Below are positions 2,223 through 53,171 of a stretch of 57,609 nt of DNA, in pieces. Within the stretch, counting starts at the first letter, position 1, and each line of letters opens with the position of its first letter. The notes below the pieces were generated by a model. It saw only the letters and a program-made list of their open reading frames with translations, was not told where the DNA came from and ran no database searches. The stretch is from contig CAZBPC010000007.1 of assembly GCA_964493715.1 (NCBI GenBank), positions 1 through 57,609 of the forward strand, read 5' to 3'. The translations under genes were made by a program, and so were the position numbers. Origin of the DNA: an uncultured archaeon (GTDB taxonomy: Archaea > Asgardarchaeota > Lokiarchaeia > Sigyniarchaeales > SOKP01).

Positions 2223-2250
2223 TGCTCAATTAACCTGATTTTATTACATA

Positions 2251-3243: not shown

Positions 3244-3250
3244 TCTCTTT

Positions 3251-3652: not shown

Positions 3653-3663
3653 TTTATTCCCTC

Positions 3664-5298
3664 TTAAAATATTGAGTCCTCATCATATGTACCAAATACT
3701 TCTTTTAAGGTTGCTATAATCTCTCCTACAGAAGTGTATTCCCTCACAGAATCAATGATATATGGCATTAGATTTTCTGAACCTTGAGCAGCAATTTTAA
3801 GTTTCTCTAATTTTACTTTTACCCTTTCATTATCCCTAATATTCCGAATTTTATTTAAGAGATCGATTTGTTCTTTTGAAACTTGTTCATCGATCTTTAA
3901 GAGTGGAGTAGAACATGGTTCTCGTAATTGGAAATCATTAACTCCAACAATAATCCTTTTGTTTTTTTCAATTTCTTGCTGGTACTTGTATGATGCGTTA
4001 GCAATTTCCTTTTGAAAAAAGTTTGCTTTTATAGCTGGGATTACCCCTCCAAGTTCCTCAATTTGTTCAAAATATGCTTCTGCTTCTTCTTCCATTCTAT
4101 TAGTTAATGATTCAACATAATAGGAACCAGCAAGTGGATCAACCGTATCTGCAACTCCAGATTCAAGGGCAATTATCTGTTGTGTTCTTAATGCAATTTT
4201 TACCGCTTTTTCTGTCGGTAAACATAAAGCCTCATCAAAAGAATTAGTGTGAAGTGATTGTGTCCCCCCTAAAACCGCAGCTAATCCTTGCAAAGTTACT
4301 CTAACAATATTATTTTCTGGCTCCTGAGCTGTTAAAGACACACCAGCTGTTTGAGTGTGAAATCTCAATCGTAAAGACTCTTGTTTTTTAGCATTATATT
4401 TATTTTTCATCCTTTTAGCCCAAATTCTTCTCGCAGCTCTATATTTGCATACTTCTTCAAAGAAATTATTGTGAGCATTAAAGAAAAATGATAAACGTGG
4501 TGCGAAATCATCAACATTCAAACCTCTTTCCATTGCAGCCTCAACATAAGCAAAACCATCTGCTAGCGTGAAAGCTAATTCTTGAATTGCTGTAGAACCT
4601 GCTTCTCTAATATGGTACCCACTTATGGAAATGGTATACCATTGGGGCACGTATTTCGTACAATACTCTATGGTGTCTACAATTAAACGCATGGATTGTT
4701 CGGGAGGAAATATCCAAGACTTCTGGGCAATATATTCTTTCAGTATATCATTTTGTATGGTTCCCCTCAATAAATCAGGAGAATGACCTTGTTTCTCTGC
4801 CGTAACAATATACATTGCAAGTAAAATTGATGCTGGTGCATTAATTGTCATTGATGTTGAAATCTTAGATAAATCTATAGAATTGAATAGAGTCTCCATA
4901 TCTTTTAAAGTATCTATGCTTACACCTTCTTTTCCTACTTCCCCTAAAGCATATTCATTATCTGCTTCATAACCATAAATGGTATGCAAGCTAAATGCAA
5001 CACTCAAACCAGTCTGTCCATGTTCTAATAAAAATTTATAACGCTCGTTTGTTTGAGCTGCGGTACCAAACCCAGCAAATTGACGCATCGTCCATAATCT
5101 TCCGCGATACATATTTCTATATGCTCCACGCGTAAATGGAAATCTCCCAGGTTCTCCTAAATCCATTTCGTAATTCAAATCTTTTATATCTTCAGGAGTG
5201 TATAGCCGTTTAATTTCGATATCTGATAGATTTCTGAACGATTCTTGACGTTCTCCTTTCTTGGGTTTTAAAGTTTTATGCTCATCAATTTCAGTCAT
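3664..5298 (-). CDS. Acyl-CoA mutase large subunit (methylmalonyl-CoA mutase family, isobutyryl-CoA-mutase-like residues)
   Basis: PFTRG, WTMRQFAGFG, GTIQNDILKEYIAQ, ISGYHIREAG, QSLHTNSFDEA. Confidence 0.93.
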   Translation of the reverse strand: MTEIDEHKTLKPKKGERQESFRNLSDIEIKRLYTPEDIKDLNYEMDLGEPGRFPFTRGAYRNMYRGRLWTMRQFAGFGTAAQTNERYKFLLEHGQTGLSVAFSLHTIYGYEADNEYALGEVGKEGVSIDTLKDMETLFNSIDLSKISTSMTINAPASILLAMYIVTAEKQGHSPDLLRGTIQNDILKEYIAQKSWIFPPEQSMRLIVDTIEYCTKYVPQWYTISISGYHIREAGSTAIQELAFTLADGFAYVEAAMERGLNVDDFAPRLSFFFNAHNNFFEEVCKYRAARRIWAKRMKNKYNAKKQESLRLRFHTQTAGVSLTAQEPENNIVRVTLQGLAAVLGGTQSLHTNSFDEALCLPTEKAVKIALRTQQIIALESGVADTVDPLAGSYYVESLTNRMEEEAEAYFEQIEELGGVIPAIKANFFQKEIANASYKYQQEIEKNKRIIVGVNDFQLREPCSTPLLKIDEQVSKEQIDLLNKIRNIRDNERVKVKLEKLKIAAQGSENLMPYIIDSVREYTSVGEIIATLKEVFGTYDEDSIF

Positions 5299-5395
5299 TA
5301 TTTAGACTCATCTCAGTTAAATTTAATATTATATCTCAAAATAATTGAGCTATTCTAGTTTTTGTTAAGGTTGGAAAGTTATTAATCTTTTTCCA

Positions 5396-6802
5396 TTAAT
5401 GAACATAAATATCTGAGGAATCTTGAGGAATGATAATTGGTGCTGATTCACCCGCTTCTATCATCCTTTGTTTTAATAATGATGATAATTCCTTTCTAAC
5501 ATCGATAAATTTTGGCTCAGTTATCAGATTCTGTTTTTCGTATGGATCATTTTCAAGATCATAAAGAAAGGTCTCTTCATATATTCTACTTCTTGAATAG
5601 AGAATACCATCTTTATCAGGAGCTTCTACTGAATATTTCCATTTATGAGTTCGTATAGCTCTTCCAACTTGAGTTTCACTTATTTGGATGAATACATCAT
5701 TGGACCAATTCTTTGAATTATCATTTAATAATTGTTGTAATGATTTTGCCTTCATATATTTGGGAATTGGAATTCCAGCACATTCAAGTAATGTGGGAGG
5801 TAGATTTATTAAGCTTACAAGCACGCTAATCCGTTTTCCTCCTTTAAAATTATCACCATTTATAATCAGTGGTATCCGAATTGATGCATCATGACATGAA
5901 CGCTTGTATTCCCCGTTTCTCGTTCTAAAGTGACAACCATGATCACTTGTAAATACAAATATCGTGCTTTCTTCCATGTTCACTTCTTTAATTTTATTAA
6001 TAATGCGTCCTACATTATGATCTATACTATTGCAACATCCTAAATAATCAGGATATAAATGTTTCCAATCTCCTTTCATTCCTTCCAAATCTCCCGGCAC
6101 TTCATAATTCTTGAATTTTTCATTACTTCCTTTGGGACCGATTATTGCATTCTGATCATTTTGTTGATGAGGTTCCAAAAAAGAGATGAAAAAGAATAAT
6201 GGTTTTGAATAATCTCGTATAGATAAATATTCTAAGGCAAAATCCGTAAGACAATCAACTCGATAACCATTAAAATCAATTCTATTATTTTTGTTATCAA
6301 AAAGATGTCCATTAAATGCGTTAGATGTAAATTCTAAGAGATCACTAGCGAGCCAATAATCTTTATATCCTCCTCTATATTGTTCTGGTATGGAAGTAAT
6401 CATGTTTTTCACTCTTTCAAGCTTAATATCTTTACATCTTCCAATAGTGCTTGCGAGGTGCCATTTGCCTAAATATCCGACCTCATATCCCGCTTGAGAA
6501 AAAGATTTTGCTAAAGTTTGTTCATTGATGGGTAAGGCAATTCCATTTCTATAGCATCCGGTCTCACTAGCATATTTACCAGTCTGAAGTATCGATCTTG
6601 CAGGACCACATACAGGTTGATTCGAAAAACAATAATCAAATTGTATACCTTCTGCTGCTATTTTATCAATATTTGGAGAAACCTTTAATTTTTGACCAAA
6701 ACAACCTAACGAATCAAATCTCTGTTGGTCTGAAAGGATAAAAATGATATTAGGGTTTTTCATTTTAGCGCGCTTGATTTTTTTTTTTGAATCCCATTTC
6801 AT
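5396..6802 (-). CDS. Cys-type sulfatase (arylsulfatase family)
   Basis: PNIIFILSDQQR, CGPAR (CxPxR), GKWHL, FTSDHG, LYDLENDPYE. Alternative ATG at 6763. Confidence 0.92.
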   Translation of the reverse strand: MKWDSKKKIKRAKMKNPNIIFILSDQQRFDSLGCFGQKLKVSPNIDKIAAEGIQFDYCFSNQPVCGPARSILQTGKYASETGCYRNGIALPINEQTLAKSFSQAGYEVGYLGKWHLASTIGRCKDIKLERVKNMITSIPEQYRGGYKDYWLASDLLEFTSNAFNGHLFDNKNNRIDFNGYRVDCLTDFALEYLSIRDYSKPLFFFISFLEPHQQNDQNAIIGPKGSNEKFKNYEVPGDLEGMKGDWKHLYPDYLGCCNSIDHNVGRIINKIKEVNMEESTIFVFTSDHGCHFRTRNGEYKRSCHDASIRIPLIINGDNFKGGKRISVLVSLINLPPTLLECAGIPIPKYMKAKSLQQLLNDNSKNWSNDVFIQISETQVGRAIRTHKWKYSVEAPDKDGILYSRSRIYEETFLYDLENDPYEKQNLITEPKFIDVRKELSSLLKQRMIEAGESAPIIIPQDSSDIYVH

Positions 6803-6808
6803 ATCGGT

Positions 6809-7945
6809 TTATAAGCTTTTATAAGCTTCGGTTATGGCAGAACATCCACCACATTTAACACAACCTGCTTTATGTTCCAAGGGATTTACTCCTGAACGTT
6901 TCATCAATTTAGCAGTTTCTCTATAGATTTTTACTAAGGTAGACACTTCCATTTTAGGAAAATTTGTTTTTCCGGGAATAGTTCTCACTGGAGTGATGAA
7001 AGGGATTACACCAACAGAAATAATTTTTTCAAGATCCTTGATCAATTCATTAGGAGATTCACCCAATCCAGTCAGAATAAAAGATTCTACTTGATTTTTT
7101 CCAAAAATATCTATAGCATGGGTCCAATTTTCTTCGAATAATTGATAAGGAATGTGGGCTTTTCCGGGTGTCATCTTTTTTCTAACTTTTTCATCAAGGA
7201 TTTCGATATGTATCCCGATCGTATCTGCTCCTGCATCTTTTAGCTGATTGATAAAAGTTAAATTGTCTAATGGTTCGATTTGAACATGAAGGGGTAAATC
7301 GGGATTTTCCTTTTTAATTCCTCGTAACATATTACTATATCTATTTACTCCTTTATCGGGTGTGAAATCAGTACCGCTCGTCAATGTCATGTGAGAACAA
7401 CGATTTTCCTTTTTAGCAGTAGCAATAACTTCATTCATTTGTTCAGCATTTTTTTCAAGTATTGTAGAATCAGTTTGTAAACTCAATTCTACTCCGCAGA
7501 ATTTGCAGGCTTCTCCGCAAGCCCAATACACACATTTTTGATAAATAGTGCTTGAAAGACAGTCAATCCCGTGAACTAATGCTATTTTTTTCATGGGGAT
7601 CCCATCCGAAGTTATGCATGAAGGATCATAATAATCGGGATTAGGAACTAATCTTAAATCTGCAAATGCTTCTTTATTTTTATTATTAATAATTTGAAAA
7701 CTCCTACCTTTTTTTTCTCCTAAGACCAACGGAGTCAGTTTACTATTATTCCATAGTGCAACATTGACCAAAGTATTGTCTTCAAATAAGAAATATCTCC
7801 CTCCGCTTGGACCGGCCCCACCCTTCCTTCCAAAATCGATTTCTATTCCTTGTTTGAGATAATGTTCGACTAAGTTCTCATCAAGAAATAATCCATTACA
7901 TAAAAGTTCAGTCTTCTTTTCAAAAATTGAAGTAATTCCAAGCAT
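6809..7945 (-). CDS. Radical SAM protein, MSMEG_0568-like (biotin-synthase-related)
   Basis: CVYWACGEACKFC cluster motif, N-terminal GRKGGAGPSGG, C-terminal AGCVKCGGCS. Confidence 0.8.
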   Translation of the reverse strand: MLGITSIFEKKTELLCNGLFLDENLVEHYLKQGIEIDFGRKGGAGPSGGRYFLFEDNTLVNVALWNNSKLTPLVLGEKKGRSFQIINNKNKEAFADLRLVPNPDYYDPSCITSDGIPMKKIALVHGIDCLSSTIYQKCVYWACGEACKFCGVELSLQTDSTILEKNAEQMNEVIATAKKENRCSHMTLTSGTDFTPDKGVNRYSNMLRGIKKENPDLPLHVQIEPLDNLTFINQLKDAGADTIGIHIEILDEKVRKKMTPGKAHIPYQLFEENWTHAIDIFGKNQVESFILTGLGESPNELIKDLEKIISVGVIPFITPVRTIPGKTNFPKMEVSTLVKIYRETAKLMKRSGVNPLEHKAGCVKCGGCSAITEAYKSL

Positions 7946-8284
7946 GACAATGATTAATTAATAAAATCCTCTTAAAATATTCTAATTTTACAATTGCTAT
8001 AAATGAGTGATTCTCTTATATTTCTACTTTTAATAAAAAGTAAACAAATATGTGAAAATATTTATAATAAAATTCTTCTTAGTATTTTACCCTTCCTAAT
8101 AATGCTAAAATAATTACTATAGAACGAGTATAAATCTAATAAGATTCAAATCAAACATCGATATTATATAACGTCCTTTATGCCTTAGGATAAAGTTTAT
8201 TAAAAATAATATACTTACACATTTAATTAATAACTATATTTTTATAGAAACAATAAAGATTTTAAAATGAATTGGTGAATTTAA

Positions 8285-8911
8285 GTGGCTCATAAAAGAC
8301 CATGGCACTGTTATTCGAAGTGGAACAGGCGCCCTTTTCAACATAAGCGTAGTGCTAACCATCGAAGAGAATACGCGAGAGGAGGTGCAGAATCAAAGAT
8401 TCAACGTTACTGGGGTGGAAATACAGACATTGCTTGGGAAGATTGGGATATCGTGTTGGGTTTAAAGGTTTCTAACCAAATTCAAGTATCCTCAAATGCT
8501 TTAGAAGCAATTAGAATTACAATAAATTCACCCTTAACGAAAATTCTAGGAAGACTCAATTACCGTATGAGAATTCGTTCAAAGCCTTTCCAGAAATACC
8601 GTGAAAATAGAATGTTAGCATTCGCTGGCGCGGATCGTGTTCAAAGTGGTATGCGCAACAGTTTCGGCCGTTCCACGGGCGTGTGCGCTCGAGTCCGGGC
8701 GGGGGCTATAATAGTAGATGTTGCGACTCATTTAAAAAACTTGGATATCGTTCGAGATAGATTAAGAGTAGCTAGCATGAAGATCTCTTGTGGTGGTCAA
8801 GTAGTTGTGCTACAATATAAAACTCCAGAGATCTTAAAGCGATCCGGTCTTCCCTTATATAATGCTGCTAAGAGGAGGGAAATCCCCATTTATGAATTAG
8901 CTACATTATAA
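8285..8911 (+). CDS. rpl10e: 50S ribosomal protein uL16 (L10e)
   Basis: SNALEAIRI, RENRMLAFAGADRVQSGMRNSFG..G.CARV; GGTGA 6 nt before the GTG start. Confidence 0.95.
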   Translation: MAHKRPWHCYSKWNRRPFQHKRSANHRREYARGGAESKIQRYWGGNTDIAWEDWDIVLGLKVSNQIQVSSNALEAIRITINSPLTKILGRLNYRMRIRSKPFQKYRENRMLAFAGADRVQSGMRNSFGRSTGVCARVRAGAIIVDVATHLKNLDIVRDRLRVASMKISCGGQVVVLQYKTPEILKRSGLPLYNAAKRREIPIYELATL

Positions 8912-9115
8912 ATATTAGTAAAAGAAATTGAGTTTAATGTAAGAAATCTTATTGTTGAACTAGCACATAATATTGTTTTTTAATTGAAGTAAAATTCGTT
9001 TTCATTTAAAAGTAAAATTTTCTTTTAAGAGTAAATAAAAATAACCATTATATTTTTTATCTTGCCGATTTCTTATTATCATAAATATTTAAAATAAACA
9101 GTCTGAGAGTTAATA

Positions 9116-10468
9116 TTGAAAAATTTAGATCCTTTCTTTCATCCAAATAGTATTTTAATTATTGGAGTATCGCGAAAGACGGAAACGTTCAGTTATACCC
9201 TCCTTAAAAATCTATTAGAAGTTTTATATAAGGGGAAAATTTTCATACTAAACCCAAATGCTGATGAAATTTTAGGAGTCAAATCATATCATTCACTCGA
9301 GGAATTACCAGAGATCCCTGAACTAGCGGTTATAGTCTTAGGTAAAAACGTTGCTTCTCTTTTTGAAAAATTAGCAAAATTTGGTGTGAAGAATATAGCC
9401 ATTGAGTCAGAATTGCGTGTTGATAAGGAAGATGCAGATCTTATTGAGCAATTAAACAAAATGAGTCTGGAATACGATGTAGCTTATATGGGACCTTCGA
9501 TGATTGGCATCATTAATTTCATAAATAACTTCACAACTTCGATTATACCCGTACGACAATATTTAATGCAGAAACATAGAAAAATTAAAGCAGGTGTTAG
9601 TTTTATTGCTCAATCTGGAGGATTAGCAGGTGCGATGGGATGGTGGGCTCCTTCTCAAGATATACCCATATCTAAAGTGATTCATTTAGGTTATGGGTTC
9701 AATATAGACGATGCGGATGTTTTAGACTATTTCATGCAAGATGATTCAACTCAAATTATCTTACTTTTTCTCAGAGAAATCACGGATAGAATAATAGAAG
9801 CAGTTAAAAATATTTCTCCAATTAAACCCGTGTTATTCTTCTACGTAGGCAAGGACATTTCAAGAGAGGAACAATTAAGTCATGCTGGTGGAATGGTGGT
9901 ATCAAATTACATGGAATTATTTGAATTTGCGAAAATTTTTTTATGGTGTCCTGAACCGAAAGGACCTAATTTAGGAATCATCGGGCCTAGTTCTGGTGCA
10001 ATCTATATTATAATTAAAGAAATGCGTAAACAGGGATTATCAATAGCAAAACTAACTAATAAAAACAAACAGATCATTCTAGATAAAGTTGGTGGCTCCA
10101 CTTGCAATTTAGGAAATCCTGTTGATTATTGGCCACCTGATCGATTCGTTGGTACCAAAATATGTGGTATCTATAATACTTCCTCACATGCGCTCCTACA
10201 AGATGACTCAGTTGATGGATTGATTTTAGCTTTAGAATTTTTTGTCGAGATCGAATTTGATTTTAATATATTTGAAAATATCAAGGAATCTTATCCTAAT
10301 AAACCAATTATAACCGTTTTAATTCAAGCTGAACGTGATGGTTCAAAAAGAGTTATAAAATCTGCTTCAGATCTAAAAATTCCCGTTTTTGAAAATGAAA
10401 TAGAGCGCGCTGTTCGGGGATATAAGCTTTTATTTGATTGGCATTCGAAAATTAAAAGGAAAAAATAA
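9116..10468 (+). CDS. Acyl-CoA synthetase (NDP-forming) alpha-subunit-like CoA-binding protein, phospho-His loop degenerate
   Basis: FFHPNSILIIGVS, LNPNADEILG, FIAQSGG, GNPVD; no SHTG loop. Confidence 0.75.
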   Translation: MKNLDPFFHPNSILIIGVSRKTETFSYTLLKNLLEVLYKGKIFILNPNADEILGVKSYHSLEELPEIPELAVIVLGKNVASLFEKLAKFGVKNIAIESELRVDKEDADLIEQLNKMSLEYDVAYMGPSMIGIINFINNFTTSIIPVRQYLMQKHRKIKAGVSFIAQSGGLAGAMGWWAPSQDIPISKVIHLGYGFNIDDADVLDYFMQDDSTQIILLFLREITDRIIEAVKNISPIKPVLFFYVGKDISREEQLSHAGGMVVSNYMELFEFAKIFLWCPEPKGPNLGIIGPSSGAIYIIIKEMRKQGLSIAKLTNKNKQIILDKVGGSTCNLGNPVDYWPPDRFVGTKICGIYNTSSHALLQDDSVDGLILALEFFVEIEFDFNIFENIKESYPNKPIITVLIQAERDGSKRVIKSASDLKIPVFENEIERAVRGYKLLFDWHSKIKRKK

Positions 10469-10532
10469 TTTCCTAATAAATGAAACCGTAGCTAGTGAAT
10501 TAAAACAAATAAATAAGAAAAAAGAAAAGAAA

Positions 10533-11792
10533 TTAACTCGAAAAAATGTCTCTTAACTCTTCTGGAACATTATCAGTATCATCAGTTACAGATAGAATGT
10601 ACATCTTTTCGCCACAATTACATCGAGCACTTTCAAATAAATAATACTGAAATTCATTTTTCCATGTGCAAATTTGCACGTTGATAATTTCAACAACTTC
10701 TCCACATTCACAATAAATATTAGCGTCCTTTCCGTATGATGGAATGATTTTTGTGAAATCTATTGGTGCACTTGCAAAATCAGATTCGTTTAACATTTTA
10801 TTAATTTGACCCGCGATCTCCTTCCGTAAACGTGGAGCAAATTGTTCGATAACTCCTTCTTTTGCTTTTATTTCAGTTAGAACAATGAAATTTTGTTCAG
10901 CTTTTTCAGGCTTTTGTGTTTTAATCGAAATTGGTTGATCAAGTTGCTTTAAGTTTTCAGGAATTGGTATCGGTTCCATTCCGGGAGGATACGCGAATGT
11001 ATAGTAGTATTGAGTTAGTCCTTTGAAGGCTTTTTGATTGATCAAATCCAAGTTTTCATAGTCTGCACTATGGAGAACAAATTTAATTAACTGAAGAGGC
11101 ACTTTTATATCCAATAGCTTGTCTCTGATGTTGTCAAGAACTTCTTGGACATAGCTTTTTAAAACAGCTATATCGTCTCGATTTATAGTATATATATCAT
11201 TCCGATTCTCTTCTTTAAATCTTGTCCATTTTCTTAATACGGTTCCCTTTAAAAGTTGTGGAAGCATGCAGAAAACGCATAAAATAGGAAACATGAATGT
11301 GTAATCGAGACCAGGAATAAAAGCTAATACAGTAATAACTACTAATAAGGGAATAGTCACCATAAAGCTTAACTTGCGAAGTCTCTTGTCAGCTGATGTG
11401 TTAAAACCATTTTCAGTAGCTGCTGCTTCTGCTCGTGCTTTTACCTGGAGTATTATTTTATCTATTTTTGTTTCCTCAAATTTTATCTTCAAAAGCTTGT
11501 CGTCTTCATTTGTTCCCAAGGTCTCAATTTTCGACGTAAGTTTTTCAAGATATTTATCAACACTTTTATCTTTGAAAATGAAGTCTAATGTTTCTTCAGA
11601 AAAATAGTCTAAAAAACGAGCAATGAATAATTTTTCTTCAATATCAGATATATCTTCCTGTTTCATTCCTAATTTTTCTTGAATTAATTGCGCTTGCGTT
11701 TTTCTAACGGGTCTTCGTGATCGTCTCGAGTTTCTTTCTTCATCTCCGGAAGAATCAGTATTCGTGTTCGGTTTATTTTCTTGTTCAGTCAT
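10533..11792 (-). CDS. Hypothetical membrane protein with two TM helices and a C-terminal Cys cluster
   Basis: 419-aa ORF; hydrophobic hairpin near aa 141-181; YCECG...C...RCNCG. Confidence 0.7.
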   Translation of the reverse strand: MTEQENKPNTNTDSSGDEERNSRRSRRPVRKTQAQLIQEKLGMKQEDISDIEEKLFIARFLDYFSEETLDFIFKDKSVDKYLEKLTSKIETLGTNEDDKLLKIKFEETKIDKIILQVKARAEAAATENGFNTSADKRLRKLSFMVTIPLLVVITVLAFIPGLDYTFMFPILCVFCMLPQLLKGTVLRKWTRFKEENRNDIYTINRDDIAVLKSYVQEVLDNIRDKLLDIKVPLQLIKFVLHSADYENLDLINQKAFKGLTQYYYTFAYPPGMEPIPIPENLKQLDQPISIKTQKPEKAEQNFIVLTEIKAKEGVIEQFAPRLRKEIAGQINKMLNESDFASAPIDFTKIIPSYGKDANIYCECGEVVEIINVQICTWKNEFQYYLFESARCNCGEKMYILSVTDDTDNVPEELRDIFSS

Positions 11793-11978
11793 AATTTTTC
11801 ATTAAATTAATAGAATATGGTGAATAATTATGCAAACATAATTAACTTTATGATCAAATCTAAACAAATTTTAGATAAAACGAAACGAGCTCTATCATTT
11901 GTCTATTACGACTATAATTAGTAAAATTTGAAAAATATATACTGAAAAAAGAATAAATAAAAAATGATAGAGTTATAT

Positions 11979-12209
11979 CTAATAAGGTACGTTAACAACT
12001 TCCGTAACTTCAGGAATAATTTGTTTGAGAGTTCTTTCAACACCGAGTGTTAAAGTCTGCTGAGCATGCATGCATCCTGCACAATGGCCAAGCAGCCGAA
12101 CTTTCACAACTCCATCGTCTGTTACTTCGATTAAGTCGATATCTCCACCATCGGCTTGTAGCTGAGGGCGAATTTTATCAATTACTTGCTTAACTTTTTC
12201 TTTATCCAT
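11979..12209 (-). CDS. NifU/NfuA C-terminal domain Fe-S cluster carrier
   Basis: IRPQLQADGGDI, LLGHCAGC, TLTLGVE. Confidence 0.92.
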   Translation of the reverse strand: MDKEKVKQVIDKIRPQLQADGGDIDLIEVTDDGVVKVRLLGHCAGCMHAQQTLTLGVERTLKQIIPEVTEVVNVPY

Positions 12210-12435
12210 TTTAAATCATGTGAATTAGTAATTTTTTCTTATAATAATAAATAAGAGTTCGTATATAAACCGTTTCTTAATAAAAAATGGAAGAACACTT
12301 TAAAAGCATTATAATTTTTAAAGAAATATAACTCTATTGTTATTAATTATGACCTTGCTTTTCTTGGTGTAGAATAAAAAAGTATTTTTTCAATCAAAAA
12401 CTCATTATCAAAATAATAAGAAAATTACGATACAA

Positions 12436-12813
12436 ATGAAACCTAATGAATTTGCAAATAACTTGAACGATGTTCAAGATTTGATGGCAAAGGAGAAATA
12501 TAAAGAAGCACTTGTACTTCTTGAGCATCTCAAAGAACTTGATAAAACATCAGATTTTGATTATAATTTAACTCACAAATTATATCAACTAGATTCTAAT
12601 ACTCGCTCATTATATAATCAAAAAGTAATCTTAGAAAGATTAAAATCAATTAATAAGGATATTAAACTAATTTCTATTGCAGAGTTTAACGAAATGTTGA
12701 GATTAAAGGATAATCTTTTATTAGAAGAGCCAATTTTAAGAAGAGAATTGGAAATATTAATTTTAAGAGGTATCATTTCCATTGAATTTCAAGGAATAAT
12801 GCTAAAATTATAA
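12436..12813 (+). CDS. Hypothetical protein; helical N-terminus plus possible PCI-like winged helix
   Basis: 125-aa ORF; C-terminal ISIAEF...LEILILRGIISIEF pattern. Confidence 0.55.
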   Translation: MKPNEFANNLNDVQDLMAKEKYKEALVLLEHLKELDKTSDFDYNLTHKLYQLDSNTRSLYNQKVILERLKSINKDIKLISIAEFNEMLRLKDNLLLEEPILRRELEILILRGIISIEFQGIMLKL

Positions 12814-12905
12814 ATTCCACCTGATAAAATACAGCTACTGAAAATCTCGGCTTTTTTAAACTTATTTTTAGAAAAATTAAAAATAAGCTAATAAGTGATA
12901 AAATT

Positions 12906-13508
12906 ATAATAATAGACGCCTTAGAGAAGACAATTCAATTAAAAATTGTGTATTATGGTCCCGCTTTATCTGGTAAGACTACATCAATCAAGACCTTGTT
13001 TGACCATTTTGGAAAAAGAGATGAGCTTTGCAGCATAGAAAGTACCGTAAGGAGGACATTATTTTTTGATTATGGCATAATCTCCTTTCAAAACGAAGAG
13101 TGGTTGCTTAAACTTAATTTATATTCGTGTACTGGGCAAGATTTCTATATTGTTACACGACCAATAACTTTAAGAGGCGTGGATGGGATTATCTTTGTTG
13201 CGGACTCTCAAATCTCAGCTTTTGATAGGAATATAGTCTCTTGGAATGAGTTAAAAACATATTTTGATGATAATTTTAAAAATCTCCCCTTAGTGATCGC
13301 ATTTAACAAGCAAGATTTACCAAAAAAATTTAGTTCAGAGACTTTCCTGAAGAAAATCAATTTCAAGACTTATAGAAATAAGGAGGTTAAGTACACGATT
13401 GCTGTAAATGGAGAAAATATCCTTAGCAGCTTTGAAGACATCTTAAGATTGATTTTCATTAATATAATAAAAAACTCTGAAGTTTTTCCCAAGATTAAAA
13501 CTAAATAG
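12906..13508 (+). CDS. MglA-like small GTPase (start uncertain; ORF track uses GTG 12948)
   Basis: IQLKIVYYGPALSGKTT, RRTLFFD, CTGQ, GVDGIIFVADS, NKQD. Similarity to MglA extends upstream of the first canonical start codon. Confidence 0.85.
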   Translation: MIIDALEKTIQLKIVYYGPALSGKTTSIKTLFDHFGKRDELCSIESTVRRTLFFDYGIISFQNEEWLLKLNLYSCTGQDFYIVTRPITLRGVDGIIFVADSQISAFDRNIVSWNELKTYFDDNFKNLPLVIAFNKQDLPKKFSSETFLKKINFKTYRNKEVKYTIAVNGENILSSFEDILRLIFINIIKNSEVFPKIKTK

Positions 13509-13556
13509 ATTCTTACAGTCTTAGGTAATAGTACTTTTAATGATCTAATGAGGATA

Positions 13557-14783
13557 TTAGAAAAAATCGGAAGATACTGATGTTTGAAGTCTGATATTTT
13601 TCTGCTCGTTATCTTCTAAAATCGTAATAAGAGCAGAGACATTTTGTTTTGTTTCATACATGATCTCTTTCTCTTCTCCAGAGTTCCATTCGCTAAATCC
13701 TTCTAAAGTGGAAATGGTTTCGAATAATCCTTCGAGTAATCCTGAAAGTTTAACCGTTACACCATGGAGTTTATCTTTTGATGCATTCTTGATTTTTACA
13801 ATGTATTTATCCATGTCTGAATCGATAGAAATAATCTTAAACACTTTTTGAAATTTTGACGAGAGTCCTTCAAATAAAGTTGGTGCACTCGAATTTTGAC
13901 CAGCAAAAAGACTAACTCCAATTTTAGCCTCATCAACGGGTTTCGATACAACGGTAATAGGGATATTAAACTTCATCTTATCGCGACCTATCAAGGGTTT
14001 CCCAATTACTTTTAATGACCATTTGGAGTAATCTCCAAATTTGAATCCCCAATCTTCCTTTTCGTGGGCTTCCCACACATAATTATGTGAAGGTTCAGCA
14101 ATTTCTGGAATTTTCAGAAATAAAAACCCTTTTTCAACGTTCGTTGTTTTTGCATCTCCCGCAATAGCAGGAGGAAGTTTTTGTACTTTTCTACAATTTT
14201 GACCATAAGCATCACAATTGCATATTAAATTTGCTTCTTGCAAGAGTCGTATTTCTATTTCTTTAAGATCTTCTCCCGAAAAATTAATTTTGATTGTCTC
14301 TCCAGGTTTAAATATGTCTTTTGACAGATTGATATTTAATCCCGATAAAGAAAAAGATATTGGATTTGATTTTTTTGTTTGTACACCTTGACCTTTCGAT
14401 CTTATCTCTATTTTCTGAGTTCTATTAATGAGTAAATCATCACCTGGATTTATAGGATGAGGTTGTCGCATAATAAGCTTAATGATATATTCTAAATTAC
14501 GGTTTTTTATGGTTGGGACAACATTATTTTTAATGAGCATTGTTCTATTTCGAATGTATTCTCCTGATTCAAAATCCCCCTTGGAAAAAATTTCTGCTTT
14601 AGCAATCTGTAGTTCTTTGGCGCATGGAGGATTAGTTATAAGTTGGATTCCACTCCATAAAATAGATGTATCTTCTTCAAAGATAAATTTAGACCTAACG
14701 TTTAACTTGTCTCCAACATACACGGAGCCGTTATTTAAATCTCCAAGCTCGATTTTCATAGTCTTAACGAAGGTTTCTATCAC
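13557..14783 (-). CDS. Arrestin-fold (arrestin N + C / Vps26-like) protein with an extra C-terminal beta domain
   Basis: VYVGDKLNV, FESGEY......IKNNVVPT...LEYIIK and LNINLSKDIFKPGETIKINF match arrestin-domain patterns. ATG at 14759 is an alternative start. Confidence 0.55.
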   Translation of the reverse strand: MIETFVKTMKIELGDLNNGSVYVGDKLNVRSKFIFEEDTSILWSGIQLITNPPCAKELQIAKAEIFSKGDFESGEYIRNRTMLIKNNVVPTIKNRNLEYIIKLIMRQPHPINPGDDLLINRTQKIEIRSKGQGVQTKKSNPISFSLSGLNINLSKDIFKPGETIKINFSGEDLKEIEIRLLQEANLICNCDAYGQNCRKVQKLPPAIAGDAKTTNVEKGFLFLKIPEIAEPSHNYVWEAHEKEDWGFKFGDYSKWSLKVIGKPLIGRDKMKFNIPITVVSKPVDEAKIGVSLFAGQNSSAPTLFEGLSSKFQKVFKIISIDSDMDKYIVKIKNASKDKLHGVTVKLSGLLEGLFETISTLEGFSEWNSGEEKEIMYETKQNVSALITILEDNEQKNIRLQTSVSSDFF

Positions 14784-38076: not shown

Positions 38077-38378
38077 CTATTTACTTAATAATTTAATATT
38101 TCGTATGAATATAAGTTATGAAATAAGATAAATTGGACACTTTATATTTTTTATATAGTCCAATATTTAATTCGAGAAACATATAAAGTGAGAAATTTAA
38201 AAATAAGATTACTACTGTAGCCTTAAGAACTTGTAAATCGACAATAAAATCCAAAGCAAAATTCTTACTTTTTTTTTTATTTAGCATTATATTAAGATTA
38301 ATAATTTTAAAATTAGAGATTTATGATCAAATGCTTTAATTCTAATGTTTAATATAAAAAGAAATGAAAAATAAAGTT

Positions 38379-39287
38379 TTAATCCGTGTGAGCACTTATA
38401 ATTAAATCCGCAAAAAGATTCATGTCATTCAACAGCACGTTGAGTTTATTTTGCGATTCTACATCGATTTCTCCAGATTTCATCACTAATACTGTAATGA
38501 TATATTTAAAAATGTGTAATTCAATTTCTTTACCTTCCTCGTTGCGTCCTTTAAAATTTGCAGAATCGGACATGAATATGTTTTCTCTAACTGTATTGCA
38601 AGCATTGATGAAGTCTCTTAAATCTCCTCTTAGAGTTAAGCCACTACTAACTCCTTGAACGTTATGAACAATAACATTTCCAGAAACATCTGAAATGATA
38701 ATCTTTGCTTTTATTTCCTCTAATTGTGCCTCCGCTTTTTCCACGTGTTCCTTTAAATTGGAATAGGATGATATCAAGATGTCTCGAAATATTTTTGCTA
38801 ACTCATCTTGTTGGTAAATGCTTGTTAGCATGTAATTGAAATCATATTCCTTAAACATGTCCAAAAAGATTTCTTTTGCTTTATTAACATTTGTATCAAG
38901 TAATTCTTTTTGATATTTCTCCGTGTCGTATTTGTGCAAGAACAAGAAAATTTTAGGTTTTTCATTGTTCTTCCGATAGATATCCAATAGTCCTTTAATA
39001 TATTCCTTAGCTTGTTCAAAGTTCTTAGGATCGTGAAGATCCACAATGGGTATAAGGATATCTGTCCCACGAAATATCTCTGGTTTTTCCATGTATTCCC
39101 TCCTATATTCTTCCTGCCCACCAAAATCAAAGATCCCCACTTGTAATCCTAAAAAGGGATGTCTTCGAGTTTCATAAAGAATCGTAGGGCTTAAGCCTTT
39201 GGTATCTTCGGGGCTTTTCTCAGCAAAAGCCACGGAATAGAGTGAGGTTTTTCCACATCCTCCTAACCCAATCAATGATATTTTAAC
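38379..39287 (-). CDS. Rag/Gtr-like small GTPase with C-terminal roadblock/longin-like domain
   Basis: (V)KISLIGLGGCGKTS, LSPT, FDFGGQ, IFRGTD, FLHKYD (Rag-type HKxD), TSIY; C-terminal IIISDVSGNVI. ORF track start is TTG 39275. Confidence 0.85.
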   Translation of the reverse strand, partial: VKISLIGLGGCGKTSLYSVAFAEKSPEDTKGLSPTILYETRRHPFLGLQVGIFDFGGQEEYRREYMEKPEIFRGTDILIPIVDLHDPKNFEQAKEYIKGLLDIYRKNNEKPKIFLFLHKYDTEKYQKELLDTNVNKAKEIFLDMFKEYDFNYMLTSIYQQDELAKIFRDILISSYSNLKEHVEKAEAQLEEIKAKIIISDVSGNVIVHNVQGVSSGLTLRGDLRDFINACNTVRENIFMSDSANFKGRNEEGKEIELHIFKYIITVLVMKSGEIDVESQNKLNVLLNDMNLFADLIISAHTD

Positions 39288-39313
39288 GTTAATTCACCTA
39301 TTTTGTTGTTATT
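39203..39313. repeat. Direct repeat copy 1 (5' end and RBS of the Rag-like GTPase)
   Basis: Matches 41175-41285 over about 111 bp with 4 mismatches. Confidence 0.95.
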
Positions 39314-39330
39314 TTTTTATTTATTTATAC

Positions 39331-39346
39331 TACTATAAAGTATTTA
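39331..39346 (-). promoter_or_regulatory. Putative BRE/TATA promoter
   Basis: TAAATACTTTATAGTA on the minus strand, about 45 bp upstream of the GTPase start; identical 16-mer at 44841-44856 upstream of pepF. Confidence 0.5.
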
Positions 39347-39830
39347 TATTCTTATTGATGTAATTTTTAATTCAATTTAAATATTAAATGTTAAAAACAA
39401 TGTTAAATAATGATAATATTATATTAATCAATGTTTAAAGGGAAATTTCTTTTTAAGAATTCATAAATTTGATAACCTTCTCTATCACCAACATCATATT
39501 TATTAATAAATTTATAGAGTAGTGTTTTTGTAGAACTATTAGAATTCTTATTTAATTCTTGAATATAATTAATAAGATTAAGGAAATAATTTCTTAAGAT
39601 ACATCTAGTATCAGAATTTTCTAATTTTAATAGCAATTCTGTATGATTAAATTTAAAATACTTTTTATTCAAAAGATTTAAAACTTCGAAGCTATTTAAT
39701 TCAAAATTGGTTTTTATAATTATGATTACTATGTTATTTTGATATTATGGATTCTGATGGCATTGTAGGTTAAAATAATACTAATATTTTTTTTTCCAAA
39801 GTTTTATTACAAATATATCTTAAAATAATC

Positions 39831-40982
39831 TTGAAGGAGCGGATAATTATAAACAATAATTCTAAAAAAACTCACGATTACTATATTGAGATAAAAAATA
39901 ACATTAGTGTCACGAGAAAAGGTATAACCATAAAAATTTGCAGTGGAATTATGTTTACATTTATTGTAACCATTTTCGCTTCAGTCCCGGCATATTCAAA
40001 TATCTTTTTTGCCATTCCAACTCAAGCTAAAATGTTCACTTTACTTGGGTCCACATTTTTATTGATTAATATTGTATTCGATAAAGCAGAAGCTATCTTA
40101 TATTGGAAAGATCCGGAAAAAAGACCGGTGATTTTGAATATAAAGATGAAGCAATCGTTCATTGAGACTATGATTGTATTTTTTGTTAATATTATTATTA
40201 TTATACTTTCCCAAAGTTTAGGATTATTAAATTTTATATATAATCTTAAAGGGATGAAATATTTTATTTCTTATTATCAACCACCTCTCTTTGAAACAGT
40301 ATTAATTACCATAATTACAACTTTATCGGTTTTCGTCATATGGACTTCTATGTATTGGTGTGTAAGTAGATTCCTTCAAATTAAAAATTATTCATACGAT
40401 CTCAAAAAAATTAATATAAAAACATTAGGTTATTTTATTGGTGGAATGATTTTATTAATAATTTTTTGGGGTTTTCTTTCTCTACCGGATGTCTTATATA
40501 GAGAGGTTAAAGTGAATGGGGACTTCGAAGGAGGAATATTATTTTTTAAAGAATTTGCTCAAAGAGATTACCTTTGGATATTGACGGCGGAGGTATTTTT
40601 TCTTATTGGCTTAAATCTATTATTCTATTTTCTAGGTGATAAACATTTGAGTGAAAGAGATAATTTTGTTCTATTGGAGAAGGAAAACAGTGAGATTAAA
40701 AGTAAAAAAGAAAAATACCGAAAAAGAGCGATCGAAAAACGTTTTATAATAGCAATGTTTGAAATTATAATAGTAGAACTAATTTGTATGCCTTTATTTT
40801 TTATATTCGCATTATTGGCCGTAGCAATAGGATCAATTGAATCTATTTTTTCCTTTCCTTATTTTCTTTCTTTAGGAACTCTAATTATCGCATTTATTTT
40901 AATTGGCGCTATACTGACTGGGAGGATTTCGATAATTAAATCAAAAGCGAGACAAAGTATACGCAATAAATCAAAAAATTAG
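39831..40982 (+). CDS. Hypothetical multi-pass membrane protein inside the repeat-flanked insert
   Basis: 383-aa ORF with about 8 hydrophobic segments; very AT-rich; start uncertain. Confidence 0.65.
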   Translation: MKERIIINNNSKKTHDYYIEIKNNISVTRKGITIKICSGIMFTFIVTIFASVPAYSNIFFAIPTQAKMFTLLGSTFLLINIVFDKAEAILYWKDPEKRPVILNIKMKQSFIETMIVFFVNIIIIILSQSLGLLNFIYNLKGMKYFISYYQPPLFETVLITIITTLSVFVIWTSMYWCVSRFLQIKNYSYDLKKINIKTLGYFIGGMILLIIFWGFLSLPDVLYREVKVNGDFEGGILFFKEFAQRDYLWILTAEVFFLIGLNLLFYFLGDKHLSERDNFVLLEKENSEIKSKKEKYRKRAIEKRFIIAMFEIIIVELICMPLFFIFALLAVAIGSIESIFSFPYFLSLGTLIIAFILIGAILTGRISIIKSKARQSIRNKSKN

Positions 40983-41151
40983 AAGTAATCTTTTTTTCCT
41001 AATTCTATAAATCAATAGCAGATTGCTGGGGTGTAGGTGATGAATTTAGGTTAACTTCAAAACCAAATTCTAATTGGTATGGTGGAGTACAACCTGGAAT
41101 TATAATAGAAGTAATCTCCATTGATGAAGTTGCATCAGGTATATTAAAACG

Positions 41152-41259
41152 TCAAAATCTTTTAATATTTGAATTATCTTCGGGGCTCTTCTCAGCAAAA
41201 GCCACGGAATAGAGTGAGGTTTTTCCGCATCCTCCTAACCCAATTAATGATATTTTAAC
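41152..41259 (-). pseudogene. Truncated 5' copy of the Rag-like GTPase gene
   Basis: VKISLIGLGGCGKTSLYSVAFAEKSPED then unrelated NSNIKRF*. Confidence 0.85.
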
Positions 41260-41285
41260 GTTAATTCACCTATTTTGTTATTATT
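41175..41285. repeat. Direct repeat copy 2
   Basis: Offset 1972 bp from copy 1. Confidence 0.95.
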
Positions 41286-41332: not shown

Positions 41333-42826
41333 TTAATTATTTTTTTCTGGTGGTTCTAATTTAAAAGTTTTTGAAAAAATCTTACCATACTCTTCGGTAG
41401 ATGCTTCCACTAAGACATTTTCGTATTTTATTTCCCCGTCTTCGACTTCCAGAGGATATCCAATTTCGATCGTTTCATATGGAAATAATTCCTTTATTGT
41501 GGTTATCCAAGGTCTCTTCTCAAATAATTCTTCAATACTGACGATCCTTATTTTTATATCTTCCAAAACTTGACCCAAGCTATTAGTGAGTGAAATATTG
41601 AGTACTTTCGTTGCTTCATTTATGGTTTTTGATACACTTAAGGCTTTTCGAGTTCCAAGAGCTGGAGAGACTGGTGTTTGATCTGATTCAGGTCCCGTTT
41701 TGATTCGAGGTTCCTCTTCAGAATCTCTTACTATGAAGACTTTTCTTTTTTGGATGTTATATTGAGAAACCTTCTTTAGTTTTGCCAAGAATAAAACGGC
41801 ATTTAAGTTTATAGCGTTAAAAGGTTCTATGGTGAGATATCCTTTTTTAGCAGCATCCTCGATAATTTCTGTACCAATTCCTGACCGAGCAAATACTGTA
41901 TTCTTCTTTGGACCACTCCCAACTGAACCAACGGAAATGTCTGAATTCTCAGCAGTCAAATCAGTGCAGAAATTACAACTCGACGATTTGAATTTATCAA
42001 GTTCCTTAATGGTGTATGATTTCACGGGTTCAGCTTTCGAATCGTAATATATGTGGAACTTACCTTTACTGATATCCATTTTTTCTACTTTGGATAAGTC
42101 TATGCCCTCTTTTTTAAAAAAGGAATAAATTGCTTCGGGTGCGAACGAATCCATGCAAAAGAGTCCGATTTTTAAGACGTGTGCTCTCATAAAATATTTT
42201 AACATACCAGCAGGGGAACTCATCATTTTATCAACAGCATCGATATTACATGGTGTACCAACAAAAGCGATAGATCTATAATCTTGCCTAATAGCATCCA
42301 TTAATGCCTCTACGGTTTGGGAATGACAATAAATTGAGCCCGATGCTTTTATCGCATCTTCCTTAGTTGTAATGATTTGAGCGATTGGGTGCCAAGGATT
42401 TTTAGGATCTTTCATGGTAACCACGGCAGCATCAATTAGATGCTCATCAAACAAATAACACAAAAGGGACGTGATACTTCCACCATCCTGTCCTCCAATA
42501 ACTTCAGGAATATTAGTGTTTCCGACATAACCCGTCTTAAATTCACCCATGAGTTGAATTGGATCAGTTATAGTTCTGGGACACTGGTTATAGCAGATTC
42601 CACACCCCGTACATTTTCCGATCAATTTCGGTTGCCCAACTATGGGATCCCATTCTAATACTGGACACACGGCAGCGCAAGTTCCACATTCCGTGCATAT
42701 TCCTGCACGAATGATCTCTTTCATTAGCATTCCGAATGAATCTTTCTTGCCTTCAAGCTTTCCTTGAATGTAATCAAATGAATAATCATACTGTTTTTTT
42801 TCTTCGCCAGATTGATTTTCAGTCAT
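41333..42826 (-). CDS. Coenzyme F420 hydrogenase/dehydrogenase beta-subunit (FrhB/FdhB) family protein with N-terminal ferredoxin
   Basis: CTECGTCAAVCP and CTGCGICYNQCP, GQDGG, FVGTPC, IGLFC, CNFCTD...DISVGSVG. Confidence 0.88.
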   Translation of the reverse strand: MTENQSGEEKKQYDYSFDYIQGKLEGKKDSFGMLMKEIIRAGICTECGTCAAVCPVLEWDPIVGQPKLIGKCTGCGICYNQCPRTITDPIQLMGEFKTGYVGNTNIPEVIGGQDGGSITSLLCYLFDEHLIDAAVVTMKDPKNPWHPIAQIITTKEDAIKASGSIYCHSQTVEALMDAIRQDYRSIAFVGTPCNIDAVDKMMSSPAGMLKYFMRAHVLKIGLFCMDSFAPEAIYSFFKKEGIDLSKVEKMDISKGKFHIYYDSKAEPVKSYTIKELDKFKSSSCNFCTDLTAENSDISVGSVGSGPKKNTVFARSGIGTEIIEDAAKKGYLTIEPFNAINLNAVLFLAKLKKVSQYNIQKRKVFIVRDSEEEPRIKTGPESDQTPVSPALGTRKALSVSKTINEATKVLNISLTNSLGQVLEDIKIRIVSIEELFEKRPWITTIKELFPYETIEIGYPLEVEDGEIKYENVLVEASTEEYGKIFSKTFKLEPPEKNN

Positions 42827-52830: not shown

Positions 52831-53171
52831 ATCTGAAAGCTGGATATTTTATTATATATTACAATTACTTACCATATAGCCCTTCTAATTATAAAAATTT
52901 TTTCAGTAGTTTTCATTAAAAATGTCAAAAAAAAAATTTTATTATAGATGAGACTCAATATCTTCTCACGTTAGATTTCTGAGAAGCCACCAAAAGAACT
53001 AACATTCAATGGTTTCCTCACTTGTTATTTATTTTTATCCGGAATAAATCCTTTATTGTGGTTGTTTAAGCCTTCAGATTACCTTTCTGAAGTAATGTGT
53101 AAAAAAATAAATCCTTAAATATAAGATTGGTACTAAATAGTATTAACAAATTATTATTTTGGCGAGAAACA

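What the first reader, a model, noticed from the sequence alone, without database searches (positions are those of the whole stretch)
39203..41285. Insert of about 1.9 kb inside the 5' end of a Rag-like GTPase gene, with the gene's 5' end restored
Seen: a ~111-bp direct repeat covering the RBS and first 28 codons of the GTPase flanks a very AT-rich stretch that carries an orphan membrane protein and ORF debris. All three coding differences between the copies are synonymous (TTG/TTA Leu, TGT/TGC Cys, AAA/AAG Lys), as expected if both copies were once functional alleles. Established: elements that integrate within protein-coding genes carry a replacement fragment that rebuilds the target gene. 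Inference: this is the relic of an integrative element or islet that targets a eukaryote-signature GTPase gene. The copy next to the frhB-like gene (41175-41285) would be the displaced original, and the intact GTPase now has a different upstream region and promoter. No integrase is present.
Basis: partly seen in the sequence, partly recalled or inferred. Interest (0 to 1): 0.75.

Follow-up and report, generated by a model that had tools for sequence, protein, structure and literature searches.

The report
Displaced GTPase start beside foreign insert
In an Asgard archaeon, 1.9 kb of patchwork DNA sits between a cut-off copy of a Rag-like GTPase gene's start and the intact gene; this is likely a scar of the host's own recombination with DNA from a related strain, a known kind of event whose layout recurs at about twenty gene ends in this genome, and likely not an integrase-driven element.

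Summary
The 111-bp repeat (4 differences, the 3 coding ones silent) and the 1.86-kb insert are real: public assemblies of other samples span both junctions. 42 of 50 orthologous loci show the empty site, and the copy beside frhB keeps the native upstream DNA.

The insert is not one element but a mosaic: (1) the 3' remnant of a free-standing LAGLIDADG endonuclease gene that precedes the same GTPase in one relative; (2) the last 13 codons of a secreted protein; (3) that protein's itinerant membrane-protein partner; (4) a decayed foreign aminotransferase scrap at a microhomology joint.

No recombinase is present and no relative shows the same break. Twenty of 23 gene-end duplications in this genome have the same gene-preserving layout around unrelated cargo.

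Best reading (0.65): host recombination, homologous on one side and illegitimate on the other, at a variable slot. Rival (0.2): endonuclease homing with a replacement gene start. Targeting of a eukaryote-signature gene is not supported. This scan noted the same kind of scar before at 3' ends, here and in other genomes. New member of a known kind.

The parts
38379..39287 (-). Intact Rag-like small GTPase gene (302 aa), likely starting at GTT 6 nt behind a GGTGA site
   Evidence: Pfam Gtr1_RagA E 1.8e-24; in-frame TGA just upstream and codon alignment with orthologues; the start codon is inferred
39203..39313 (-). Repeat copy A: ribosome-binding site and first 28 codons of the working GTPase
   Evidence: a contig of run X4 (38746-39307, 0 differences) ties its alleles to the gene body
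39314..39426 (-). Spacer (10% G+C) between the LAGLIDADG gene's end and the GTPase; new upstream region of the GTPase
   Evidence: lies in one continuous 71% alignment (422/595) with the DNA upstream of the GTPase in G009; G+C; promoter activity not tested
39427..39723 (-). 3' remnant (96 codons plus end, no internal stop) of a free-standing LAGLIDADG endonuclease-like gene
   Evidence: 63.5% aa identity, E 4e-27, to residues 469-564 of the 567+ aa ORF directly upstream of the GTPase in G009; that ORF has LAGLIDADG_3 E 1.8e-11; 75.7% nt identity
39732..39773 (+). Last 13 codons and stop of a secreted protein that normally precedes the membrane gene
   Evidence: matches the end of the 406-aa ORF in G042 (L050) and of metagenome loci L168, L174, L175, L180
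39831..40982 (+). Intact membrane protein (about 380 aa; true start perhaps ATT 39846 or ATA 39849) of an unnamed Lokiarchaeia family found at many unrelated loci; possibly an orphan immunity gene
   Evidence: 28 homologues, none with a Pfam domain; the immunity role is inference only
40983..41098 (+). Downstream spacer that travels with the membrane gene
   Evidence: 94% match to 41048 in G042, to about 41060 in L171, L174, L179, and to 41098 in a contig of run X13
41118..41174 (-). Decayed scrap from the middle of a class-V aminotransferase gene, not the genome's own copy, joined to copy B at a GAAG microhomology
   Evidence: local scores 49-59 against 4 of 6 relatives' genes (31 and 22 against the other two), 21 against the genome's own gene, maximum 32 in 300 shuffles; two indels
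41175..41285 (-). Repeat copy B: cut-off GTPase start with native upstream DNA; would give a 35-aa peptide ending at 41152
   Evidence: right junction spanned by contigs of runs X1-X3, X5-X7 and X13
41333..42826 (-). FrhB-like gene, the GTPase's normal upstream neighbour
   Evidence: FrhB_FdhB_C E 1.6e-42; adjacency in relatives

Best explanation
The insert is likely a scar of the host's own recombination: a DNA fragment from a closely related strain, carrying the GTPase start plus that strain's accessory DNA upstream of it, likely paired with the chromosome through the GTPase start and was joined at its other end through a few matching bases, which leaves one intact gene and one cut-off start. 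Shown: the repeat, the empty site in relatives, the mosaic make-up, the absence of a recombinase in the insert, and the same layout at many other gene ends. Inferred: (1) the frhB-GTPase gap is a variable slot that in some lineage held the LAGLIDADG gene; (2) the membrane-gene module, with an already decayed aminotransferase scrap, replaced most of that gene in an earlier illegitimate event; (3) the composite entered this chromosome either by one-sided homologous recombination with an illegitimate joint at codon 28, or by circularisation at that joint followed by a single crossover within the 111 bp. Only outcomes that keep the GTPase whole would survive, which explains the 'restored' gene without a dedicated replacement mechanism.
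For: Empty site in 42 of 50 distinct orthologous loci; 7 others hold unrelated genes upstream, 1 is uninformative, and none shows a second 5' copy (genes). The insert is a patchwork of three sources at 76%, 89-91% and 84% nt identity to their nearest relatives, whereas the repeats are 96% alike, so the pieces were likely assembled before the duplication. GAAG microhomology at the right joint. Genome-wide: of 109 nearby direct repeats, 24 have one copy in an ORF and one outside; 20 of the 23 at gene ends have the gene-preserving polarity (binomial p 2.4e-4). None of 64 ORFs listed inside them resembles the genome's integrase, and only this locus matches the endonuclease queries. One other case (contig C63) has an empty site in G006 and G022. 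Nuclease-free membrane-gene loci are bracketed by duplications about as often (2 of 18) as LAGLIDADG loci (3 of 23). In E. coli, circularised DNA entering by a single crossover left partial gene duplications of 109-950 bp, and illegitimate joints carry 3-10 bp microhomology (PMC3240628, passages).
Against: An endonuclease remnant sits directly beside the restored start, at the same place as the intact-looking gene in G009, which a generic mechanism does not predict. Classical homology-facilitated illegitimate recombination usually deletes host DNA instead of duplicating it and is rare (PMC3240628). DNA uptake and this pathway were not tested in these archaea. No control genome was scanned, so the genome-wide count is not shown to be unusual, and some of the 24 cases may be decayed paralogues. 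Three of four other cases checked in relatives gave no clear empty site. The cargo ORFs were not scanned against Pfam for transposases.
Confidence: 0.65

Rival explanations
1. A free-standing LAGLIDADG homing endonuclease cut the GTPase start of an empty allele. Repair from a donor copied in the endonuclease cassette together with a cut-resistant replacement start. The membrane-gene module later overwrote most of the endonuclease gene. This would mirror fungal mitochondrial mobile ORFs, but at the N-terminus.
For: The remnant and spacer are homologous and at the same position as in the distant relative G009, while closer relatives are empty. Both LAGLIDADG motifs of the G009 protein keep an acidic residue (motif knowledge recalled). 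G056 has another LAGLIDADG gene and an LRR gene upstream of this GTPase. The family matches in 50 of 133 genomes (this counts the remnant and partial hits). Loci L106 and L115 show an endonuclease tightly bracketed by a gene tail and its displaced copy. One silent difference lies 13 bp from the break.
Against: Copy A is 96% like copy B but only 64/84 like the G009 gene start, so no foreign start came with the cassette from a G009-like donor. The switch to cassette DNA lies upstream of the ribosome-binding site. Only 3 of 23 family loci are bracketed, all at 3' ends. The DNA joined to copy B is an aminotransferase scrap, not endonuclease DNA. The G009 contig ends inside the gene, so a displaced copy there cannot be seen.
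Confidence: 0.2
2. Relic of an integrase-driven element or islet whose attachment site carries the GTPase start, with the integrase lost or supplied from elsewhere.
For: Long direct repeats flank a low-G+C insert and the gene is intact. The genome has one tyrosine recombinase.
Against: No recombinase or remnant in the insert. The one recombinase lies among housekeeping genes on another contig. No other locus among 50 has the duplication. The 111-bp sequence occurs only here in the genome. No excision joint was listed in 8 runs, though these are contigs only. The Asgard att site I read about is 11 bp with an integrase inside the element (PMC11529989, passages).
Confidence: 0.08
3. Tandem duplication of the GTPase followed by deletion of most of one copy, with foreign DNA arriving independently.
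For: It would give near-identical starts, and two of the three silent changes fall on the working copy.
Against: No relative has a second copy in the DNA fetched (0 of 50). Nothing of the GTPase beyond codon 28 remains upstream. The DNA upstream of copy A matches another lineage's allele of this slot, not the native spacer.
Confidence: 0.04
4. Mis-assembly or strain chimera.
For: Sister strains at about 90-98% identity co-occur in the samples. The public contigs cannot phase a 34-bp stretch shared by both copies. No raw or long reads were available.
Against: One 1941-bp contig (39278-41218) spans both junctions in runs X1, X2 and X3 (X1 may be the source of this DNA), at depths like the flanking contigs (11, 17.4, 17.7). 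A 2023 sediment run of another study spans the right junction with 1 difference. The repeat is shorter than a normal short read.
Confidence: 0.03

Closest known systems
Homology-facilitated illegitimate recombination, and circularisation plus single crossover (Acinetobacter, Streptococcus, Pseudomonas, E. coli; PMC3240628, passages read)
   Same: One homologous anchor, one microhomology joint, no recombinase, insert of 1-2 kb; the single-crossover products in E. coli had 109-950 bp partial gene duplications.
   Different: The classical form usually deletes host DNA. It was not tested in Asgard archaea here. The cargo is itself a multi-step mosaic.
Insertion with long target duplication (restriction-modification genes; PMC2853133, passages read)
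   Same: Insert under 20 kb, direct repeat over 30 bp that is unique in the genome, an empty allele in relatives, no mobility genes.
   Different: No restriction-modification genes. The duplicated target is the start of a protein gene. In the passage read, no archaeal case survived that paper's repeat screen.
C-terminal displacement with orphan immunity genes at Rhs, CDI and T6SS loci (PMC5361080, passages read)
   Same: Displaced gene end left behind, proposed to arise by homology-facilitated illegitimate recombination; the cargo here looks like an orphan partner gene with a scrap of the upstream secreted protein.
   Different: The displaced part is the N-terminal end of a housekeeping-type GTPase. 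Toxin and immunity functions are untested.
Fungal mitochondrial mobile endonuclease ORFs that make hybrid genes (Allomyces atp6; Glomus atp6, atp9, cox2, nad3; PMC3630166, passages read)
   Same: LAGLIDADG gene next to a replacement gene end, with the native end displaced.
   Different: Those replace C-termini with clearly foreign sequence (63.5% identity for Glomus atp6). Here the N-terminus is involved, the copies are 96% alike and only a nuclease-free remnant is left.
Integrase elements that insert in protein genes and carry a replacement fragment (e.g. E. coli e14 in icd, recalled; Asgard Yucahu-i, PMC11529989, passages read)
   Same: Direct repeats and an intact target gene.
   Different: No integrase, no recurrent site, no circle seen, mosaic cargo.

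Membership tests
Integrase-driven integrative element | Tyrosine or serine recombinase gene or remnant within the element | tested here: not met
   large serine recombinases (PF07508) were not searched separately
Integrase-driven integrative element | Same attachment site used in independent genomes | tested here: not met
   0 of 50 orthologous loci show a second 5' copy; three of those with foreign upstream genes are cut by contig ends
Integrase-driven integrative element | Excised circle or empty site in the same population | tested here: inconclusive
   no joint listed in 8 runs, contigs only
Insertion with long target duplication / homology-anchored illegitimate insertion | Unique direct repeat over 30 bp, insert under 20 kb, empty allele in relatives | tested here: met
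Insertion with long target duplication / homology-anchored illegitimate insertion | 3-10 bp microhomology at the non-homologous joint | tested here: inconclusive
   GAAG plus a partial extension, judged against a decayed scrap and proxy donors; four bases in AT-rich DNA can be chance
Insertion with long target duplication / homology-anchored illegitimate insertion | Dependence on the host recombinase (RecA/RadA) and on incoming DNA | not testable with these tools
   needs genetics in a cultured relative
Insertion with long target duplication (restriction-modification type) | Restriction and modification genes in the insert | tested here: not met
   the only intact ORF is a membrane protein
Mobile endonuclease ORF with replacement gene end | Endonuclease gene next to the replacement end | tested here: inconclusive
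   only a 3' remnant without the nuclease domain is here; the domain is present in the G009 homologue at the same site
Mobile endonuclease ORF with replacement gene end | Replacement end of foreign origin that travels with the endonuclease | tested here: not met
   copy A matches G009 at 64/84 and copy B at 63/84, while A and B match at 81/84
Mobile endonuclease ORF with replacement gene end | Cleavage of the empty allele near the break | not testable with these tools
   needs a cleavage assay
Polymorphic toxin-immunity pair (cargo) | Secreted protein with conserved N-terminal processing domain and variable C-terminal domain | tested here: met
   conserved N-terminal half and variable hydrophobic C-terminus; His and Cys motifs in 22 of 22 homologues shown (caspase-like reading recalled; one weak Peptidase_C25 hit, E 0.008, among 29 scanned)
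Polymorphic toxin-immunity pair (cargo) | Downstream partner gene that also occurs as an orphan with scraps of the toxin end | tested here: met
   among 14 metagenome loci the upstream gene is near full length in 3 and a C-terminal scrap in 4; the other 7 gave no protein-level hit, some being cut by contig ends
Polymorphic toxin-immunity pair (cargo) | Toxicity and its neutralisation by the partner | not testable with these tools
   needs expression tests

The most novel reading that the evidence does not exclude
A widespread, apparently undescribed family of free-standing LAGLIDADG endonuclease genes in Lokiarchaeia homes into chromosomal gene ends. Here it invaded the start of the Rag-like GTPase and supplied a cut-resistant replacement N-terminus and promoter, the mirror image of fungal mitochondrial mobile ORFs, uncoupling the GTPase from its redox-enzyme operon. 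The dead cassette then served as a landing pad for an orphan immunity gene of an unnamed archaeal toxin system.
Probability: 0.2. Interest if true: 0.6.

Novelty: new member of a known kind. Interest (0 to 1): 0.3.

Why it matters
Under the best reading this is a well-resolved example of how Lokiarchaeia gain accessory genes without mobile-element enzymes, and it removes the idea of an element aimed at a eukaryote-signature gene. It also shows that the frhB-Rag GTPase linkage can be broken: 7 of 50 orthologous loci have other genes directly upstream. Two leads deserve more attention than the insert itself. One is a large free-standing LAGLIDADG family, sometimes bracketed by displaced gene ends. 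The other is an unnamed secreted-protein and membrane-protein pair that behaves like a toxin and immunity module.

Tried and rejected
tRNA att site: no tRNA in the window. Metagenome scan for relatives of the G009 endonuclease: none confirmed among 590 candidates. Search of five genomes for a displaced GTPase start: in G009 the GTPase contig and the frhB contig are both cut, so it was uninformative. One-step abortive homing with template switching: rejected as the main reading, because the aminotransferase scrap has two indels while copy B has at most four substitutions. Using allele polarity to tell one-sided recombination from circle integration: a crossover between codons 11 and 24 would fit the pattern against G006, but so would plain displacement, so it does not discriminate. 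Structure models: secreted protein pLDDT 37.6, not searched; membrane protein pLDDT 57.8, no PDB match at E 0.001. Atlas search with a homologue gave only scores under 0.9. Complex prediction for the secreted C-terminal domain with the membrane protein gave no answer. A suspected GIY-YIG gene in the G042 island got no such Pfam match. A 29-bp match between the native spacer and a G042 membrane-gene locus was treated as AT-rich chance. Empty-site checks for contigs C100, C101 and C40 were inconclusive. No control genome was scanned for the frequency of gene-end duplications.
Full report
OBSERVATION. The repeat is real: 39203-39313 and 41175-41285, 111 bp, four mismatches, no other copy in the 3.68-Mb genome. 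It covers the GGTGA site and 28 codons of a Rag-like GTPase on the minus strand (Gtr1_RagA E 1.8e-24). An in-frame TGA lies just upstream, so the gene likely starts at GTT 39287. Among 49 orthologous starts that could be parsed, of 50 loci, 25 use ATT, ACG, ATA, ATC, GTT, CTG or TTA at this position. The three coding differences are silent. The insert is 25.0% G+C, lower than 99.5% of equal-sized windows. Homologues of its membrane protein are labelled Lokiarchaeota or Promethearchaeota by their sources.

ASSEMBLY. Eight public runs were laid, all kept as contigs. One 1941-bp contig spans both junctions in X1 (possible source), X2 and X3, at depths like the neighbouring contigs. X4 links copy A's alleles to the gene body. 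X13, a 2023 sediment run, spans the right junction with one difference. The 2019 salt-marsh runs may be one campaign. A 34-bp stretch identical in both copies is not phased by these contigs, sister strains co-occur, and no raw or long reads were available. No joint for a circle or empty site was listed.

EMPTY SITE. I gave 75 fetched loci; 2 lacked the gene start and the rest collapse to 50 distinct starts. In 42 the frhB-like gene ends 73-201 bp upstream. Three have 1.4-4.8 kb of other genes between the two. Four have other genes upstream and no frhB in the stretch. One is too short to tell. None shows a second 5' copy. The DNA upstream of copy B matches the closest relatives (66-69 of 79 columns) and that of copy A does not (48-49 of 83). 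The gap is therefore a variable slot, and copy B keeps the native context.

ANATOMY. Reading from the working gene outward: (a) A spacer and 96 stop-free codons (39314-39723) are homologous to the DNA upstream of the same GTPase in G009 (71% over 595 columns; 63.5% aa). There the ORF is a LAGLIDADG protein of at least 567 aa. Among 133 genomes of the family only G009 matched this remnant at length by DNA. (b) The last 13 codons of a secreted protein. (c) Its usual downstream partner, the membrane gene, matched in 9 of 41 genomes of the genus including this one, mostly as fragments, and at 14 metagenome loci in varied surroundings. (d) That gene's downstream spacer. (e) A 57-bp decayed scrap of a class-V aminotransferase. 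It scores 49-59 against four of six relatives' genes, 21 against the genome's own, and at most 32 in 300 shuffles; it meets copy B at GAAG. In those relatives a remnant of the membrane gene lies behind that aminotransferase. About 19 bp (41099-41117) remain unassigned.

NO RECOMBINASE, NO TARGETING. The genome's one tyrosine recombinase is on contig C33 among housekeeping genes, and no resolvase was found. A self-comparison found 109 nearby direct repeats. In 24, one copy lies in an ORF of 100 aa or more and the other does not; the other 85 were dropped as paralogues, internal repeats or non-coding pairs. Of the 24, fifteen are 3' ends with the extra copy downstream, five are 5' ends with it upstream (this locus included), three have the opposite polarity and one is internal. 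That gives 20 of 23 gene-preserving, p 2.4e-4. Hosts and cargo are miscellaneous. None of 64 listed insert ORFs resembled the integrase, and only this locus matched the endonuclease queries. Of four other cases checked in five relatives, one had a clear empty site and three were inconclusive. The ORF calls are crude and no control genome was scanned.

SILENT CHANGES. A random change here is silent 24% of the time (35% for transitions). Three in a row would be 1-4%. But against G006, G001 and G022 two of the three derived states are on the working copy, so only one needs chance. The pattern fits two alleles but does not prove it. A frhB-linked sister strain in run X6 carries copy A's Leu codon, so that allele exists in nature.

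MECHANISM. Best reading (0.65): host recombination with DNA from a close relative, homologous through the GTPase start and illegitimate at codon 28, or circularised there and integrated by one crossover. In E. coli the latter gave 109-950 bp partial duplications (PMC3240628, passages). The cargo pieces are much more diverged from their relatives than the repeats are from each other, so they were likely assembled earlier. Selection for an intact GTPase explains the polarity. The main rival (0.2) is homing by the LAGLIDADG gene. In its favour: same gene at the same site in a distant relative, another such gene upstream in G056, family matches in 50 of 133 genomes, and tight brackets at L106 and L115. 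Against it: copy A is not G009-like, and bracketing duplications occur at 3 of 23 endonuclease loci with a hit (24 given) versus 2 of 18 membrane-gene loci (20 given), many with short flanks.

CARGO. The secreted protein has a hydrophobic signal-like start, a conserved half with His and Cys motifs, a Pro/Gly linker and a variable hydrophobic end; its profile finds 94 clusters. Calling it caspase-like rests on recalled motifs and one weak Peptidase_C25 hit among 29 homologues. A toxin and orphan-immunity reading would explain why the membrane gene keeps turning up with scraps of its partner's end. It is inference only.

LITERATURE. Passages were read, by term search, in PMC3240628, PMC5361080, PMC3630166, PMC2853133 and PMC11529989. 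PMC3482391 on polymorphic toxins was seen only as a listing. The e14/icd example, RadA, and the LAGLIDADG and caspase motifs are recalled. Three searches listed no paper on free-standing LAGLIDADG genes in Asgard chromosomes; the library lacks most subscription papers and I read no supplements, which could hold such annotations. Earlier notes of this scan describe the same kind of scar at 3' ends in this and other genomes, and the odd start codons. Before seeing them I gave homing 65%; my, together with those notes, moved me to host recombination.

VERDICT. Observation confirmed, interpretation partly supported. New member of a known kind, interest 0.3. The homing reading has probability 0.2 and would deserve 0.6.

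Noticed in passing
window 39285-39287 and orthologues L002-L167: The GTPase likely starts at GTT; across 49 parsed orthologues the start position holds ATT 16, ATG 15, TTG 8, ACG 4, and ATA, GTT, CTG, TTA, GTG, ATC once each. GTT and TTA differ from ATG at two positions.
   Followed up: partly
L050 (G042:C44) 4849-13924: An 8.7-kb island carrying the intact secreted-protein and membrane-gene pair is bracketed by an intact radical SAM gene and a cut-off 166-bp copy of its start (73% alike): the same 5' layout as in the window.
   Followed up: partly
L171 1096-1167 and 2948-3019: The membrane-gene module lies between two 72-bp copies (97%) of a promoter, ribosome-binding site and first codons; the downstream copy heads an intact ORF.
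   Followed up: partly
L115 (G095:C37) 2140-10895: One AAA-ATPase operon shows three such duplications: the ATPase start (98 bp), the ATPase end around a LAGLIDADG gene (49 bp), and the start of the next gene (118 bp).
   Followed up: partly
L100, L101, L102 (G092, G139, G102): Related LAGLIDADG genes sit at the 3' end of the same dehydrogenase-like gene in three genomes, suggesting site preference.
   Followed up: no
L149 (G056:C61) 1-2513 and L118 (G009:C476) 5051-7624: The same LAGLIDADG plus LRR gene pair lies upstream of two different small GTPase genes; L149 also has a 365-bp, 98% duplication at the Rag GTPase's 3' end.
   Followed up: no
L042-L044, L046, L047, L049: 3' remnants of the membrane gene lie between a class-V aminotransferase and a phosphoglycerate dehydrogenase-like gene in six genomes.
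   Followed up: partly
L051 (G042:C75) 6655-10011: A second copy of the membrane-gene module lies directly behind an actin gene.
   Followed up: no
L186 (G000:C63) 3222-6914 in contig coordinates: A 1231-aa ORF with no Pfam match sits in a 23% G+C insert between two copies of a gene end; the site is empty in G006 and G022.
   Followed up: partly
window 52887-52934: A non-coding 48-bp stretch is repeated (85%) 6.5 kb downstream, outside the window, bracketing a 1537-aa ORF.
   Followed up: no
L021, L026, L028: The GTPase is frameshifted or interrupted in G003 and G009; assembly error or decay was not resolved.
   Followed up: no
window 38077-38378: The region downstream of the GTPase is also variable among relatives, with different genes following it.
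   Followed up: no
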